A stretch of 64,000 bases of DNA from Minisyncoccota bacterium (GCA_041661005.1 JBAZVG010000001.1:114116-178115), one strand, 5' to 3'; shown: positions 12,658 to 16,682, counted from the first letter of the stretch. Numbers and translations: made by a program. Notes: a model not told the origin generated them from the sequence alone.

Positions 12658-15600
12658 ATGAATAATAAAGGTTCAAAATTTAACAGGGGTTCTGAATGGA
12701 GAAAGTGGGATCTACATACCCACACTCCTTTCACAAAATTAAATAATAATTACTCAGATGCCAAGAGTAGCGATGTATGGGTAGAATTTTGCGAAAAGGT
12801 GGAAAATTCAGATGTGGAAGTTTTTGGTATAACAGACTATTTCTCTGTAGAAAATTACCTTATTTTTAAAAAGAAGTTTGAAGTAAAATATCCAAAATCA
12901 AAAAAGGTATTTTTCCCCAACATCGAGTTAAGAGTTGACCGTTCTTCGAACAATCGCAATGAAGGGTATGATTTGCACTTAGTTTTTGATAATAAGATTG
13001 ATGATGTAGAACTAGAAAACTTTCTACATAATTTAAAGTTAGAAAATACGGATACTAATGGTAAAAAACTAAAAGCAAACGAACTAAAAACAGAAAACGA
13101 TTTTAAAACTGCTTTTACCACAATTCCTTTTATCGACGAAGCTCTTAAAGATACTTTTGGTGATAAGCGACCATTTTTTAGAATACTCATGGCCCATGGG
13201 CACGGTGGGATACAACCGGAAAGGGATAACTCTAGAAAGAATGCAGTTGCTGAAGAAACAGACAAGAGAGTAGCAGACATTTATTTTGGATGTGATGGGA
13301 AAGATAGGGAATTTTTTCTTAATGATCGAGGTAAAGTAAAAAAGAAAAAAGCTTGTATCTCTGGAAGCGATGCTCACTCTTTTAAAGATTTCAATGAAAA
13401 GGTTGGAAAAAAGTTTTTAAATGATAGTACAAGACACACCTTCCCCACTTGGATAAAAGCAGATAAAACCTTTGAGGGCTTAAAGCAAATTACTCATGAA
13501 CCACAAGAGAGAGTCTTTTTAGGTGATAAACCAGAAAAACTTTTAGATGTCGAATCAAACCGTTCGAGATTTGTGGAATCTGTAAAAGTTGGACATATAG
13601 ACAGTAAACAAACATCTGGTTGGTTTAATAGTGAAATTCCTTTGAATCCCGGGTTAGTTGCTATTATTGGAAGAAAGGGTCAAGGTAAAAGTGCATTAAC
13701 TGATATAGTTGGTTTATGTGGAAGGACTAAAATAGATCCAAAAGACTATTCTTTTCTACGTGAAGATAAATTCCGTAAGAGAGGTTTGGCAAAAGGTTAT
13801 GAAGCAACTATGACATGGTTAGATGGGGTATCTATTACTGAGAGTCTTGATGCAAAGGTAAGTGCTACAGAAGTTGAAAAAATAAAGTATCTACCTCAAA
13901 AATATGTCGAGACAATATGTAATGAGGATGGTGTAAGTTCTCAATTTCAAAGAGAAATAGACAAAGTCATTTTTTCCTATATTCCAGAAGAAAATAGATT
14001 AAATACAACAAGCCTCTTTGATCTTATTAATGTAAAAACTTCTACAATCGAAGGTAAGGTTGTACAGATTAGGGCTGATCTTCATTCTGTAAATGAGCGA
14101 CTTGTTAAATTGGAGGGGAAACTTTATCCCCAATATTTAGAATCACTACAAAATAAGCTTGAAGGTAAAAAGCAGGAATTAAAAAGCTTAATTAAACCTA
14201 AGACGGTTGTTGCGCCCAAAAATCAGCTTAAAAAAATCGACCAAGATAAACTAACTAAAATAACGGACGGGATAGAAACAATTTCAAAAGAAATTGAAAC
14301 CGCAAAAGCTTCTATAAAAACAGTTAACGACAAGCTCAACAAGCTTGTAAAACTTAAAGCAGCAGTTGGACGTATTACAGAAAGTGCCGCTACAATAGTA
14401 AGAGACTTTACAGAAGATGCGAAACTCCTCTCAATCAATTTGTCAGAGCTTTTGAATATTAAAGTTGATAATAAAATTTTAGACAAGACAGAACAACAAT
14501 TATCTAAAAAGAAAAAACACCTAGAAGAGTTGTTGGATCAAAATGATAACCCTTCATCCAAAAGTCTTTATGCAAAAAAGTCAGACCTTGAATCACAAAA
14601 GGAAAAAATGGTTAATGTTCTAGGAGAAGATCAAAAGAAATATTCTGCATACCAAAACAAAATTAAAGAATATGAAGCGAGAAAAAAAGAGATTGAGGGT
14701 AAGCCAAATGATTTAACTCTAGAGACCATTCAATCAATTGAAACGGAAATAAAATATCTCGATAAAAAAGTTTACTCTGACCTAAAAAATGAACTCAATG
14801 AAAGAGACTTACTAGCTGGAAATCTATATACAGAGTTACAACAAAAATCTAATTTTTATAAAGATATTTACCGCCCAATTCAAAGATTTATAGAGACTGA
14901 AAAGAAAACGCAAGAGGAATCTGGGAGTATGCTTGAATTTGATGCCGGTGTGGTTTTTGATAGAAGTTCTTTTACAAATCGCTTTCTTGGTTACATTAAC
15001 CAAAACCGAGATGGTAGTTTTCAATATACAGATAAAGGGCAAAAAGTGCTGAATAAGATTACTGATAAAACTGATTTTTCTGGTCCTACTGGAATTAAAA
15101 ATTTTACACAAGAATTAATTGAACACTTAAAATATGATAAAACCCAAAATCCTGAAAAAGAAAGTACCCTGCGTTCTCAACTTAAAGGTGGAGAACAAGA
15201 GAACATACAATTTTATGATTACATCTTTGGTTTAGATTACTTAAATGTTAAATATAAAGTATTATTTAACGGCAAAGATCTAAACAGTAATGAATTTTCA
15301 CCAGGAGAAAAGGGGGCATTATTGCTCATTTTTTACCTACTAATAGACAAAGAGAGAATACCTTTGATTATGGATCAGCCAGAGGAAAATCTAGATAATG
15401 AGTCAATTTTTGAACTGCTCGTTCCCTATATACGGAAAGCAAAGTTGAAAAGGCAAATTATCATTGTTACGCACAACCCTAATTTAGCTATTGTATGTGA
15501 TGCGGAGCAAATTGTTGCCGTTTCAATGAATAAACAGAAAAACCAAATAAGATACACATTTGGTAGTATAGAAAATATTGAAATGAATAAGAAGGCATCT

Positions 15601-15663
15601 GATGTGTTAGAGGGTACGTTACCGGCATTTGATATTAGAGGCAATAAATATATCAGAAAATAA
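12658..15663 (+). CDS. PHP-phosphoesterase domain fused to an SMC/OLD-like ABC ATPase (1001 aa)
   Basis: N-terminal WDLHTHTP, HGHGG and SGSDAHS (PHP histidine motifs). Walker A GRKGQGKSA. Long coiled-coil middle. C-terminal ABC signature/Walker B/D-loop (LLLIFYLLID...IPLIMDQPEENLD) and H-loop (IIIVTHNP). Extended -10 TGCTATACT lies 15 nt upstream. Confidence 0.85.
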   Translation: MNNKGSKFNRGSEWRKWDLHTHTPFTKLNNNYSDAKSSDVWVEFCEKVENSDVEVFGITDYFSVENYLIFKKKFEVKYPKSKKVFFPNIELRVDRSSNNRNEGYDLHLVFDNKIDDVELENFLHNLKLENTDTNGKKLKANELKTENDFKTAFTTIPFIDEALKDTFGDKRPFFRILMAHGHGGIQPERDNSRKNAVAEETDKRVADIYFGCDGKDREFFLNDRGKVKKKKACISGSDAHSFKDFNEKVGKKFLNDSTRHTFPTWIKADKTFEGLKQITHEPQERVFLGDKPEKLLDVESNRSRFVESVKVGHIDSKQTSGWFNSEIPLNPGLVAIIGRKGQGKSALTDIVGLCGRTKIDPKDYSFLREDKFRKRGLAKGYEATMTWLDGVSITESLDAKVSATEVEKIKYLPQKYVETICNEDGVSSQFQREIDKVIFSYIPEENRLNTTSLFDLINVKTSTIEGKVVQIRADLHSVNERLVKLEGKLYPQYLESLQNKLEGKKQELKSLIKPKTVVAPKNQLKKIDQDKLTKITDGIETISKEIETAKASIKTVNDKLNKLVKLKAAVGRITESAATIVRDFTEDAKLLSINLSELLNIKVDNKILDKTEQQLSKKKKHLEELLDQNDNPSSKSLYAKKSDLESQKEKMVNVLGEDQKKYSAYQNKIKEYEARKKEIEGKPNDLTLETIQSIETEIKYLDKKVYSDLKNELNERDLLAGNLYTELQQKSNFYKDIYRPIQRFIETEKKTQEESGSMLEFDAGVVFDRSSFTNRFLGYINQNRDGSFQYTDKGQKVLNKITDKTDFSGPTGIKNFTQELIEHLKYDKTQNPEKESTLRSQLKGGEQENIQFYDYIFGLDYLNVKYKVLFNGKDLNSNEFSPGEKGALLLIFYLLIDKERIPLIMDQPEENLDNESIFELLVPYIRKAKLKRQIIIVTHNPNLAIVCDAEQIVAVSMNKQKNQIRYTFGSIENIEMNKKASDVLEGTLPAFDIRGNKYIRK

Positions 15664-15677
15664 AATCTTTTAAATTA

Positions 15678-16682
15678 ATGGAAAAGTTATCTACATTTCA
15701 CCACGAAACCTTAGAAATACTTAAACAATTAGAATATTGTTGTGATCGTTTTGAAATATATAATCCAGGAGAAGAATTGGAAGACAAATATCTTTGGATT
15801 TCTTTTGACGATATAGATTTTACCGTTCTTAAAAATGGTAAACATATACATGATATTGAAACATTTCTGCAAAAAAAAGGAGTGGATTTTCATATAACTT
15901 TTGATCTAGAAAATGAATTTCCAGATATGTATATAGACCCTGAACATCCAAACTATGATTTTGTTCAACTTGGACAAATTAATGGTGAAAGTATACAAGA
16001 TATAAAGACAAGGATTAAAAAAATTATTTTTGAATTAAATCCAGAAGAAAAAACAAACGAAGTTGAGAATATTTTAGTAAAAAATAGAGAAAAAAAGAGA
16101 GATAAGAACATTTTTAAATTTGATTTTGTCGAACCGATTCAATGGGATGGATTAACTCTAAAAATTAAAGATGGGAAGGAAGATGTTGAGGTTGTCTATA
16201 AAGACAAAACTTTGGGAACAAAAAGTTATATTGATCTTGGCTTCAGCTCAAATACAAAAAATCATAAACCAAATAGAGGATGGCAACTTTTAGTAATTCT
16301 TTCTGTGTTCCAGCTTAGAAATATTACAGAAGCAACACCGGCAAACATAGGTCCGATGTTTAAAAATCACACAGGAGGAAATGGAATAACAAAAGAAAAT
16401 GTCTACCAAACAAAGAGAATACTTTCAGACACACTTAAGACTATCTTTAAAACAAACGAAGATCCATTCACAGATAAAAAGGAATTCTATGAGCCTATTT
16501 TTACCATATTACCTGAACCAGAGTTAAGGCACCCTGAAATATGGTCTTCACGGATAAAAAACAATGAATCGCAAGAACCTAATTTCTTTGAAGATAAGGA
16601 AGACGAAAGTCCATATAACGATGAAACCTTATTCAACAACGAAGATTCTGGTGATGATAAAGACATAAATGAAGAGTACTAA
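15678..16682 (+). CDS. co-operonic partner protein (334 aa), no recognised domain, acidic C-terminal tail
   Basis: Starts 15 nt after the ATPase stop. C-terminal NNEDSGDDKDINEEY tail. A terminator follows. Confidence 0.7.
   Translation: MEKLSTFHHETLEILKQLEYCCDRFEIYNPGEELEDKYLWISFDDIDFTVLKNGKHIHDIETFLQKKGVDFHITFDLENEFPDMYIDPEHPNYDFVQLGQINGESIQDIKTRIKKIIFELNPEEKTNEVENILVKNREKKRDKNIFKFDFVEPIQWDGLTLKIKDGKEDVEVVYKDKTLGTKSYIDLGFSSNTKNHKPNRGWQLLVILSVFQLRNITEATPANIGPMFKNHTGGNGITKENVYQTKRILSDTLKTIFKTNEDPFTDKKEFYEPIFTILPEPELRHPEIWSSRIKNNESQEPNFFEDKEDESPYNDETLFNNEDSGDDKDINEEY

What the first reader, a model, noticed from the sequence alone, without database searches (positions are those of the whole stretch)
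12658..16682. Two-gene module: PHP phosphoesterase fused to an OLD/SMC-like ABC ATPase plus an unrecognisable 334-aa partner, carried on an integrated element
The 1001-aa protein joins an N-terminal PHP-type metal phosphoesterase (WDLHTHTP, HGHGG, SGSDAHS) to a split ABC ATPase. That ATPase has Walker A GRKGQGKSA, a coiled-coil spacer of about 400 aa, and a C-terminal signature/Walker B/D-loop/H-loop. The ATPase architecture matches the OLD/Gabija/PARIS/Septu/Lamassu anti-phage ATPases. Those families pair the ATPase with a Toprim, HNH or other nuclease; here a PHP domain occupies that position, which would make it the likely nuclease/phosphoesterase effector. The next gene follows 15 nt later, has no motif I can recognise, and ends in an acidic tail. 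The pair sits at the distal end of a tRNA-integrated element alongside replication genes, which is a typical defence-cargo position. I cannot name a described system with this composition.
Basis: partly seen in the sequence, partly recalled or inferred. Interest (0 to 1): 0.85.

Follow-up and report, generated by a model that had tools for sequence, protein, structure and literature searches.

The report
Ppl-like PHP–ATPase on mobile element
The 1001-aa protein joining a PHP nuclease-type domain to a Rad50-like ATPase is real, but it belongs to the already named TrlF family, an end-to-end relative of the known single-gene anti-phage protein Ppl, and the 334-aa gene behind it is not a dedicated partner.

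Summary
Both ORFs, all quoted motifs, the 14-nt gap, the acidic tail and the tRNA-linked element are confirmed. The composition is not undescribed. The 1001-aa protein scores 607.8 bits (cutoff 350), full length, on NCBIfam NF045780, "TrlF family AAA-like ATPase". A TrlF profile aligns end to end with E. coli Ppl (hhalign 99.7%, E 1.7e-26), a validated single-gene PHP + NTPase anti-phage exonuclease. The PHP fold is supported by profile and structure searches.

TrlF relatives occur in at least 584 species and on plasmids. They sit in restriction-modification and defence neighbourhoods with no constant neighbour.

TrlF homologues at 80, 79, 73, 68 and 66% identity lack the 334-aa gene. None of about 85 other TrlF loci has it. 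Its relatives sit beside a Cas4-like nuclease or type I or II restriction systems. Its C-terminal module is also fused to a UG19-like reverse transcriptase. Typically these genes lie at the junction with a primase and serine-integrase module.

It is co-transcribed with TrlF here and is probably a DNA-binding element or regulatory protein, on weak evidence.

Verdict: a new member of a known kind. Interest is low to moderate.

The parts
12583..12657 (+). Left end of the conserved 5.3-kb block, which is the left end of the integrated element, and the upstream region of the TrlF-like gene
   Evidence: Homology to L007-L010 (96.6% identity) starts at 12583, and the sequence to the left differs between genomes. 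The flanking 134-aa gene has its own promoter-like site at 12566-12538 on the minus strand.
12658..15663 (+). TrlF-family, Ppl-like protein of 1001 aa: PHP phosphoesterase fused to a Rad50/SMC-type ABC ATPase
   Evidence: NCBIfam NF045780, E 5.8e-182, 607.8 bits (cutoff 350), covering aa 10-998. hhalign against E. coli Ppl gives probability 99.7%, E 1.7e-26, aa 8-989 against 2-888.
12685..13530 (+). PHP domain, about aa 10-290: HxH at 20/22, D60, E90, H107, D238-x-H240
   Evidence: Profile A6 hits PDB PHP proteins: 9etk at E 2.4e-5, plus EndoQ, PolC PHP and YcdX. The AF2 model has pLDDT 80.4. Foldseek top 14 hits are Pol III alpha PHP, RNase AM and BVU_3505, at E 1.6e-5 to 1.2e-3.
13555..14007 (+). 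N-terminal lobe of the ABC ATPase head, with Walker A GRKGQGKS at aa 338-345
   Evidence: Walker A is invariant in 24 of 24 members. The profile matches the Rad50/SMC N-terminal P-loop region.
14008..14847 (+). Coiled-coil insert, about aa 450-730, with no CxxC zinc hook
   Evidence: K+E 26.7%, L/I/V 26%, P+G 4.6%, and no CxxC motif. There are weak LmuB/JetC coiled-coil matches. This is an inference from composition.
14848..15660 (+). C-terminal lobe of the ABC ATPase head: signature SPGEKG, Walker B DQPEE, H-loop THNP
   Evidence: Rad50 chains 3qku/3qkt match aa 810-961. SMC_N and AAA_21 match. Ppl models match aa 827-994. The motifs are invariant.
15678..16682 (+). 334-aa protein made of two independently shuffled, uncharacterised modules plus an acidic tail. 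It is co-transcribed with the TrlF-like gene but is not specific to it.
   Evidence: No hit in Pfam, NCBIfam, PHROGs or the PDB. Exhaustive HMMER finds 279 representatives; only 12 of the best 150 carry both modules.
15678..16067 (+). Partner N-module, aa 1-130 (LKQLEYCCD ... INGESIxxIKT)
   Evidence: Found in 57 of 150 representatives, mostly with other C-terminal halves. pLDDT is 65-90 in the AF2 model.
16110..16577 (+). Partner C-module, aa about 145-300. It is a possible winged-helix DNA-binding domain, on weak evidence.
16578..16679 (+). Acidic C-terminal tail of the partner
   Evidence: 16 D/E against 4 K/R in the last 45 residues.
16685..16708 (+). Strong intrinsic terminator ending the TrlF-partner transcription unit, with a second one at 16735-16751
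   Evidence: 10-bp stem with 6 GC pairs and a T-run. There is no terminator-like site in the 14-nt gap between the two genes.
16960..17253 (+). 97-aa gene of the conserved block, function unknown
   Evidence: Present in L007-L010. No family hit.
17356..17871 (+). 171-aa Pol-beta-like nucleotidyltransferase, last gene of the conserved block
   Evidence: DNA_pol_B_thumb at E 7.7e-7. Conserved in L007-L010.
17895..19976 (+). Primase/AAA_25 helicase, the element's replication gene. It is replaced by a Prim-Pol/PriCT_1 protein in the 97%-identical relatives.
   Evidence: AAA_25 at E 1.5e-24 and PHROG primase/helicase families. Homology to the relatives ends at 17914.
20248..21978 (+). Large serine recombinase (integrase). 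Its 3' end overlaps tRNA-Asn by 13 nt.
   Evidence: Resolvase, Recombinase and Zn_ribbon_recom domains; phrog_95 integrase at E 2.5e-45. It is only 24% identical to the integrase of the L007 element, which abuts tRNA-Glu.
21966..22038 (-). tRNA-Asn (GTT), the right boundary of the element
   Evidence: ARAGORN. Rfam tRNA at 70.2 bits.

Best explanation
The 1001-aa gene encodes a TrlF-family protein. It is a distant but end-to-end homologue of the anti-phage protein Ppl, carried as cargo at the integrase-distal end of a ~9.4-kb element (12583 to ~21978). That element is integrated next to tRNA-Asn in a Patescibacteria (CPR) genome and carries a primase and a serine integrase.

Shown here:
- a PHP-fold phosphoesterase domain with the HxH/D/E/DxH metal-ligand set mostly intact
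- a Rad50/SMC-type ABC ATPase head split by a coiled coil, with all catalytic motifs invariant
- family membership
- a patchy, mobile-element and restriction-modification-linked distribution with no constant neighbour

Inferred by homology to Ppl (Xu et al. 2026, as cited in PMC13434339 and summarised in PMC12904381):
- The protein acts on its own, probably as an ATP-bridged dimer.
- Bound NTPs hold the PHP 3'-5' exonuclease inactive.
- NTP depletion during infection, together with exposed 3'-OH DNA ends, releases nuclease activity that destroys the invading DNA.

The 334-aa gene is co-transcribed with it (14-nt gap, shared terminator) but is not a dedicated partner. It combines two shuffled, uncharacterised modules. 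Relatives of those modules typically lie at the junction between variable defence cargo and the primase/integrase module in related elements. It is most likely a DNA-binding regulatory or maintenance protein of the element. This last step is inference from position and a weak fold signal.
For: Family and architecture:
- NF045780 at 607.8 bits, full length.
- hhalign against Ppl: 99.7%, E 1.7e-26, 821 aligned columns.
- PHP domain.
- ATPase.

Stand-alone behaviour and defence context:
- At least 584 species carry a relative.
- In 79 loci no neighbour family is found in more than 7 loci. The recurrent ones are HsdM, HsdR, HsdS, N6_N4 methylase, PDDEXK, integrases and resolvases.
- Of 10 tight downstream neighbours tested, 6 are restriction-modification subunits or enzymes (HsdS, HsdR x2, HsdM, MmeI-type) and 1 is ApeA.
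- The closest relatives are fused to HTH-methylase-ResIII operons, lie beside AbiE and a DGR, or lie beside Dcm/Vsr.
- In the plasmid loci examined no tightly linked co-directional partner is annotated.

Partner not specific:
- (10 relatives by word search).
- (only L007-L010 among about 90 TrlF loci carry it).
- (other contexts).
- (module shuffling).

Operon.

Element:
-.
- the sister element sits next to tRNA-Glu with an integrase only 24% identical.
Against: - No TrlF-family member has been shown to defend against phage. The founding Photorhabdus locus was found through a temperature-restriction phenotype, and all mutations mapped to trlG, not trlF (PMC7554251).
- Identity to Ppl is low (20% in hhalign; BLASTP sees only the C-terminal 160 aa at 28%), so the mechanism may differ.
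- The His of PHP motif II is Tyr here, so nuclease activity is unproven.
- The TrlF and partner genes are a tight bicistronic unit and are co-inherited wherever this partner lineage could be examined with context (L007-L010). A lineage-specific functional link therefore cannot be excluded.
Confidence: 0.6

Rival explanations
1. A true two-component system. The 334-aa protein would be a lineage-specific sensor, regulator or inhibitor that works with the TrlF-like ATPase-nuclease. It could, for example, tether it to DNA or hold it inactive through the acidic tail.
For: The gap is 14 nt, there is no terminator between the genes, and a strong terminator follows directly. The pair is kept together in all four 97%-identical copies, with the partner at about 99% amino-acid identity. 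Other ABC-ATPase defence systems are multi-gene. The founding TRL operon also pairs TrlF with a second protein, TrlG (PMC7554251).
Against: TrlF homologues at 80, 79, 73, 68 and 66% identity have no such gene. None of the roughly 85 other TrlF loci has it. A 73%-identical partner follows a Cas4-like PD-(D/E)XK gene instead. More distant relatives follow a type I restriction operon, lie divergent from a type II system, or are fused to a reverse transcriptase. The two modules of the protein occur separately in most relatives.
Confidence: 0.2
2. The TrlF-like protein serves the mobile element rather than the host. It could be an addiction or abortive-type toxin, an exclusion factor against competing elements, or a processing nuclease for the element's own replication together with the Pol-beta-like protein and the primase.
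For: It travels in a 5.3-kb block with the 97-aa and Pol-beta-like genes, between elements that have different primases and integrases. The Photorhabdus TRL locus behaves like a conditional growth inhibitor (PMC7554251). Many relatives are on plasmids.
Against: Most relatives have no primase or Pol-beta neighbour and lie inside restriction-modification operons or defence islands. The closest characterised homologue, Ppl, is an anti-phage protein (PMC11482910, PMC12904381).
Confidence: 0.15
3. A housekeeping Rad50/SbcC/RecN-like DNA-repair ATPase that happens to lie near an integrated element.
For: The best solved-structure matches of the ATPase lobes are Rad50 and SMC.
Against: There is no SbcD/Mre11 neighbour and no zinc hook. 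The gene lies inside the element boundaries. Flanking genes differ between closely related copies. Neighbours are restriction-modification, Abi and integrase genes. The gene is frequently plasmid-borne.
Confidence: 0.03

Closest known systems
TrlF (NCBIfam NF045780; trlF of the Photorhabdus laumondii temperature restriction locus, PMC7554251)
   Same: Full-length HMM match above the curated cutoff. Same PHP + ABC-ATPase architecture and a similar length (1001 aa against a 944-position model). RefSeq annotates the plasmid relatives with this name.
   Different: The founding locus is trlR-trlF-trlG, where TrlG has AlbA_2 + HATPase_c_4 domains. Here there is no TrlG or TrlR. The downstream gene has neither domain. 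The host is a Patescibacterium and the gene is on an integrative element.
Ppl (Gao et al. 2020 single-gene anti-phage system; NF042955; mechanism in Xu et al. 2026, Mol Cell, cited in PMC13434339)
   Same: Same domain order (PHP, ABC head N-lobe, coiled coil, C-lobe). Colinear profile alignment over 821 columns at 99.7% probability. Shared GSxWxKxDxHxHTP, GSDAH, WxKxxxxxFxGL, Walker A and C-terminal motifs. Ppl is also often plasmid-borne.
   Different: About 20% identity. The Ppl models match only aa 827-994, at 91.5 bits against a cutoff of 1000, so annotation tools would not call it Ppl. It is a separate sister family. Activity has not been tested. The motif II His is Tyr.
Rad50/SbcC and SMC-like defence ATPases (Lamassu LmuB, Wadjet JetC)
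   Same: ABC head split by a long coiled coil. The C-lobe matches Rad50 chains at E 3.7e-6. There are weak LmuB and JetC matches.
   Different: There is no zinc hook or hinge and no Mre11/SbcD or kleisin partner. The nuclease is fused in cis as a PHP domain.
OLD-family and related ABC ATPases (Gabija GajA, PARIS AriA, Septu PtuA)
   Same: Same ABC/AAA_21-type ATPase superfamily. Weak matches to AriA (5.3e-6) and PtuA (0.01). The ATPase-plus-nuclease logic is the same.
   Different: There is no Toprim or HNH domain. The similarity is limited to the C-terminal ATPase lobe. These are multi-gene systems.
Defence-island transcription regulators (restriction-modification controller proteins, BrxR/WYL-type regulators). 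This is a resemblance only, and it concerns the 334-aa protein.
   Same: Found next to many unrelated defence gene sets. Possible winged-helix fold.
   Different: There is no sequence similarity to any of them and no Pfam or PDB match. It usually lies downstream of the cargo, typically next to the replication module. DNA binding is unproven.

Membership tests
TrlF family AAA-like ATPase (NF045780) | Whole-protein HMM score above the curated cutoff, with near full-length coverage | tested here: met
   607.8 bits against a cutoff of 350. aa 10-998 match model positions 1-943 of 944.
TrlF family AAA-like ATPase (NF045780) | N-terminal PHP phosphoesterase domain | tested here: met
   Profile hits to PDB PHP proteins. 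Foldseek top 14 hits are all PHP domains. HxH, D60, E90 and D238 are invariant.
TrlF family AAA-like ATPase (NF045780) | Split ABC ATPase with Walker A, signature, Walker B and H-loop | tested here: met
   All motifs are present and invariant in 24 of 24 members. Rad50/SMC matches.
TRL operon (trlR-trlF-trlG) of Photorhabdus | Adjacent TrlG (AlbA_2 + HATPase_c_4) and a small HTH protein, TrlR | tested here: not met
   The downstream 334-aa protein and the other element genes have no AlbA_2, HATPase_c_4 or small HTH hit. No recurrent family annotated among 79 loci, and none of the 10 tight downstream neighbours scanned, carries these domains.
Ppl anti-phage protein (NF042955 / PADLOC Ppl) | HMM score above cutoff, full length | tested here: not met
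   91.5 bits against a cutoff of 1000. Only aa 827-994 match.
Ppl anti-phage protein (NF042955 / PADLOC Ppl) | PHP + NTPase architecture, homologous over the whole length | tested here: met
   hhalign of the TrlF profile against WP_000233113.1: 99.7%, E 1.7e-26, aa 8-989 against 2-888.
Ppl anti-phage protein (NF042955 / PADLOC Ppl) | Acts as a single gene | tested here: inconclusive
   There is no conserved neighbour across the family. Here, however, it is co-transcribed with the 334-aa gene.
Ppl anti-phage protein (NF042955 / PADLOC Ppl) | NTP-inhibited 3'-5' ssDNA exonuclease that protects against phage | not testable with these tools
   This needs biochemistry and phage-challenge assays.
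OLD family / Gabija GajA | Toprim nuclease domain C-terminal to the ABC ATPase | tested here: not met
   No Toprim hit in Pfam, NCBIfam or PADLOC. The nuclease-type domain is an N-terminal PHP.
Rad50/SbcC repair ATPases | Zinc hook (CxxC) at the coiled-coil apex and an adjacent Mre11/SbcD nuclease | tested here: not met
   No CxxC motif in the protein. No SbcD-like neighbour.
OmpR/PhoB-type winged-helix domain (considered for the 334-aa protein and its relatives) | Significant sequence or profile similarity to Trans_reg_C | tested here: not met

The most novel reading that the evidence does not exclude
The 334-aa protein belongs to an undescribed family built from two shuffled modules. Its C-module typically marks a fixed slot, between variable defence cargo and the primase/serine-integrase module, in a family of small integrative elements of Patescibacteria and other uncultured bacteria, and it can be fused to UG19-like reverse transcriptases. 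In the most novel reading, this module is a defence-associated adaptor or regulator. It would couple whatever cargo sits upstream (TrlF here; restriction-modification, a Cas4-like nuclease or a reverse transcriptase elsewhere) to the element's life cycle or to infection sensing. TrlF plus this protein would then be a functional pair in this lineage.
Probability: 0.2. Interest if true: 0.55.

Novelty: new member of a known kind. Interest (0 to 1): 0.3.

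Why it matters
The result places a candidate-phyla-radiation gene in the TrlF/Ppl superfamily of PHP-nuclease/ABC-ATPase proteins. It also shows that TrlF, known only from a temperature-restriction phenotype, is an end-to-end homologue of a mechanistically understood anti-phage protein and lives in restriction-modification and defence neighbourhoods in many phyla. 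That gives a testable mechanism for a widespread family found in at least 584 species. It also points to a defence-cargo slot in small tRNA-adjacent, serine-integrase elements of Patescibacteria. It does not reveal a new kind of system.

Tried and rejected
- Pfam on the whole protein and on aa 1-347 found no PHP domain. The domain became visible only with family profiles and a structure model.
- Sequence search of the PDB found no solved Ppl or TrlF structure, only Rad50/SMC lobes.
- The partner gave nothing in Pfam, NCBIfam, PHROGs or the PDB, and only a weak PADLOC AbiEii match at E 0.0047, which I treat as chance.
- The AF2 model of the partner was poor (pLDDT 53). Foldseek against the PDB gave only noise.
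- Searches for partner relatives in viral contigs found none.
- No long direct repeats mark the element ends, as expected for a serine integrase. A tRNA-like match near 12550 turned out to be the promoter region of the flanking gene.
- The first literature search for TrlF was swamped by the spectroscopy term "TRLFS".

Full report
**Observation**

Every quoted motif is present:
- WDLHTHTP at aa 17-24
- AHGHGG at aa 179-184
- SGSDAHS at aa 235-241
- Walker A GRKGQGKSA at aa 338-346
- signature SPGEKG at aa 881-886
- Walker B/D-loop LIMDQPEENLD from aa 903
- H-loop VTHNP at aa 937-941

The gap between the genes is 14 nt. The partner ends in an acidic tail, with 16 D/E in the last 45 residues. Downstream lie a 97-aa gene, a Pol-beta-like nucleotidyltransferase, a primase/AAA_25 helicase and a large serine recombinase. 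The recombinase's 3' end overlaps tRNA-Asn. GC falls to 0.30-0.33 across the pair.

**What the large protein is**

NCBIfam places it, full length and well above cutoff, in NF045780, "TrlF family AAA-like ATPase" (607.8 bits, cutoff 350). RefSeq already uses that name for relatives on plasmids of Vibrio, Staphylococcus, Burkholderia, Rhizobium, Klebsiella and others. The name comes from the Photorhabdus temperature restriction locus trlR-trlF-trlG. There TrlF is the "histidinol phosphatase"-annotated large protein, and all temperature-tolerant mutations fell in trlG (PMC7554251).

Pfam does not see the PHP domain in this sequence, but other evidence does:
- Some homologues carry PF02811.
- A 13-sequence profile of aa 1-330 hits PHP proteins in the PDB: RNase AM 9etk at E 2.4e-5, plus EndoQ, PolC and YcdX.
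- An AF2 model of aa 1-330 (pLDDT 80.4) gives 14 top Foldseek hits that are all PHP domains.
- H20, H22, D60, E90 and D238 are invariant in 24 diverse members, and H240 is kept in 20 of 24.

The His expected after D60 is Tyr here and in 17 of 24 members.

The ATPase lobes match Rad50 and SMC. All ATPase motifs are invariant. The insert between the lobes has coiled-coil composition and no zinc hook.

**Relation to a known defence system**

[quoted passage not shown] Reviews describe it as an NTP-inhibited 3'-5' ssDNA exonuclease that responds to nucleotide depletion and to 3'-OH ends (PMC12904381). The primary paper is Xu et al. 2026, Mol Cell, cited in PMC13434339.

The Ppl HMMs match only the last ~170 residues of the window protein. 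I therefore fetched a RefSeq-annotated ppl gene from an E. coli IncF plasmid and compared it with a 24-sequence TrlF profile. hhalign gives 99.7% probability, E 1.7e-26, over 821 colinear columns, with aa 8-989 aligned to 2-888.

TrlF and Ppl are therefore sister families with the same architecture from end to end. The window protein is a member of TrlF. It is not a member of the Ppl equivalog.

**Is it defence cargo?**

The family is large: more than 5244 proteins at E<=1e-10 and at least 584 species representatives across most phyla.

Its closest relatives, all in Patescibacteria-type assemblies, sit in these contexts:
- as the last gene of HTH/N6_N4-methylase/ResIII operons, at 80% and 66% identity
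- next to AbiEii/AbiEi and a diversity-generating retroelement, at 73%
- after Dcm/Vsr, at 68%
- before a tyrosine integrase, at 79%

In 79 species-representative loci no neighbour family occurs in more than 7 loci. The recurrent ones are HsdM, HsdR-N, HsdS, N6_N4 methylase, YhcG-type PDDEXK, integrases, resolvases, Fic and deaminases. I scanned 10 tightly coupled downstream genes. They were HsdS, HsdR (two), HsdM, an MmeI-type enzyme, ApeA, an AAA_21 ATPase, DUF2130, DUF900 and one unknown. In the plasmid loci examined no tightly linked co-directional partner is annotated.

This is the distribution of a modular defence-island gene that does not need a fixed partner. It is not that of a housekeeping repair gene.

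**The element**

Window 12583-17914 is 96.6% identical to four other assemblies (L007-L010). This block holds TrlF, the 334-aa gene, the 97-aa gene, the Pol-beta-like gene and the first 20 nt of the replicase. Upstream the relatives have MarR and efflux genes instead of DsbD/redoxin. Downstream they have a Prim-Pol/PriCT_1 replicase instead of the RepB-like/AAA_25 one. Their serine recombinase is only 24% identical, and its 3' end overlaps tRNA-Glu rather than tRNA-Asn.

These are two different tRNA-adjacent integrative elements that share one recently exchanged left arm.

**The 334-aa gene**

It is co-transcribed with the TrlF-like gene. No terminator lies in the 14-nt gap, and a strong terminator (16685-16708) plus a second one follow it directly. 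But it is not tied to TrlF.

- A word-based search of 5.8 billion proteins found 3 relatives, or 10 when a profile was used.
- An exhaustive HMMER search found 279 representatives.
- Among the best 150, the N-module (aa 1-130) occurs in 57 and the C-module (aa ~145-300) in 113. Only 12 carry both.
- tblastn of the protein against all 108 loci found it only in L007-L010 among about 90 TrlF loci.

Its relatives lie in these contexts:
- behind a Cas4-like PD-(D/E)XK gene and a 50-aa acidic ORF, at 73% identity (L014)
- divergent from a type II methylase/endonuclease pair (L015)
- as the last gene of a type I hsdM-AAA_15/21-hsdS-hsdR operon (L017/L018)
- after RmuC, UvrD-PDDEXK, NucS-like and DUF2726 genes (L019)
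- directly before a Prim-Pol/AAA_25 gene (L020)
- in a Prim-Pol element (L101)

In L107/L108 the C-module is fused to a UG19-like reverse transcriptase. That gene occupies the same slot: HpaII restriction-modification genes, then RT-C-module, DUF5659, Toprim primase, a 203-aa gene and a serine recombinase.

The family therefore typically marks the junction between variable cargo and the replication/integration module.

**Mechanism**

Shown: the domain identities, the intact ATPase motifs, a mostly intact PHP ligand set, the operon structure, the element context, and the absence of a conserved partner.

Inferred from Ppl: an ATP/NTP-gated PHP exonuclease that is released when nucleotide pools fall and 3' ends appear. 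It would act alone, probably as a coiled-coil dimer.

Inferred from position and the weak fold signal: the 334-aa protein is a DNA-binding regulator or maintenance factor of the element.

**Rivals**

1. A lineage-specific two-gene system (0.2).
2. An element-serving toxin, exclusion or processing function (0.15).
3. Housekeeping repair (0.03).

**Verdict**

The domain and defence-cargo interpretation is largely right. The claims of novelty and of a two-gene module are not supported. This is a new, divergent member of a named family that is sister to a known anti-phage protein, sitting in an interesting but conventional cargo slot of a small integrative element.

Noticed in passing
window 21966-22350 (minus strand): A 79-aa GIY-YIG nuclease ORF (22043-22282; Pfam E 1.7e-15) lies between the intact tRNA-Asn and a duplicated 5' half of the same tRNA (exact 17-nt repeat 22019-22035 = 22330-22346). 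The duplicated half carries a 20-nt GC hairpin insertion, CCTGCCTGCCGGCAGGCAGG. It looks like a small mobile GIY-YIG insertion that duplicated part of the tRNA gene.
   Followed up: partly
window 21966-21978; L007 19399-19445: In both sister elements the serine-recombinase ORF runs convergently into the 3' end of a tRNA gene. The overlap is 13 nt with tRNA-Asn here and 47 nt with tRNA-Glu in L007, although the two recombinases are only 24% identical.
   Followed up: partly
window 17895-17914 versus L007 15234-15254: The recombination breakpoint of the shared 5.3-kb block lies about 20 nt inside the replicase gene. Beyond it the window has a RepB-like/AAA_25 primase-helicase and the relatives have a Prim-Pol/PriCT_1 protein.
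   Followed up: partly
L001-L003 868-9000; L011-L012 1967-9018: In Patescibacteria relatives, TrlF is the fourth gene of a tight HTH_3 / N6_N4 methylase / ResIII(+RE_endonuc) / TrlF operon, with gaps of 2-6 nt. The arrangement is conserved at both 80% and 66% TrlF identity. It is a possible type III-like restriction system with an added PHP-ATPase.
   Followed up: no
L107 7001-9286; L108 4862-7147: A 761-aa UG19-like reverse transcriptase is fused to the partner's C-module. It lies between an HpaII restriction-modification pair and a DUF5659/Toprim-primase/serine-recombinase module.
   Followed up: partly
L004 2551-5883: A diversity-generating retroelement (bAvd + RVT_1), RadC and an AbiEii/AbiEi pair lie directly upstream of a 73%-identical TrlF gene. 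Downstream of TrlF are a SET-domain gene and an AAA ATPase.
   Followed up: no
L014 878-1030; L017 6845-6997; L018 5376-5507; L020 1040-1171: A tiny 43-50-aa ORF (acidic in L014) directly precedes the partner-like gene in several relatives, with gaps of 3-22 nt. No such ORF exists in the window.
   Followed up: no
window 17356-17871: A 171-aa minimal Pol-beta-like nucleotidyltransferase (thumb at E 7.7e-7, palm at E 0.004) is conserved in the shared block next to the primase gene. Its role in the element is unknown.
   Followed up: no
L030 6795-8300: An ApeA-type HEPN defence protein overlaps the stop of a TrlF-family gene by 4 nt in a Melainabacteria assembly.
   Followed up: no
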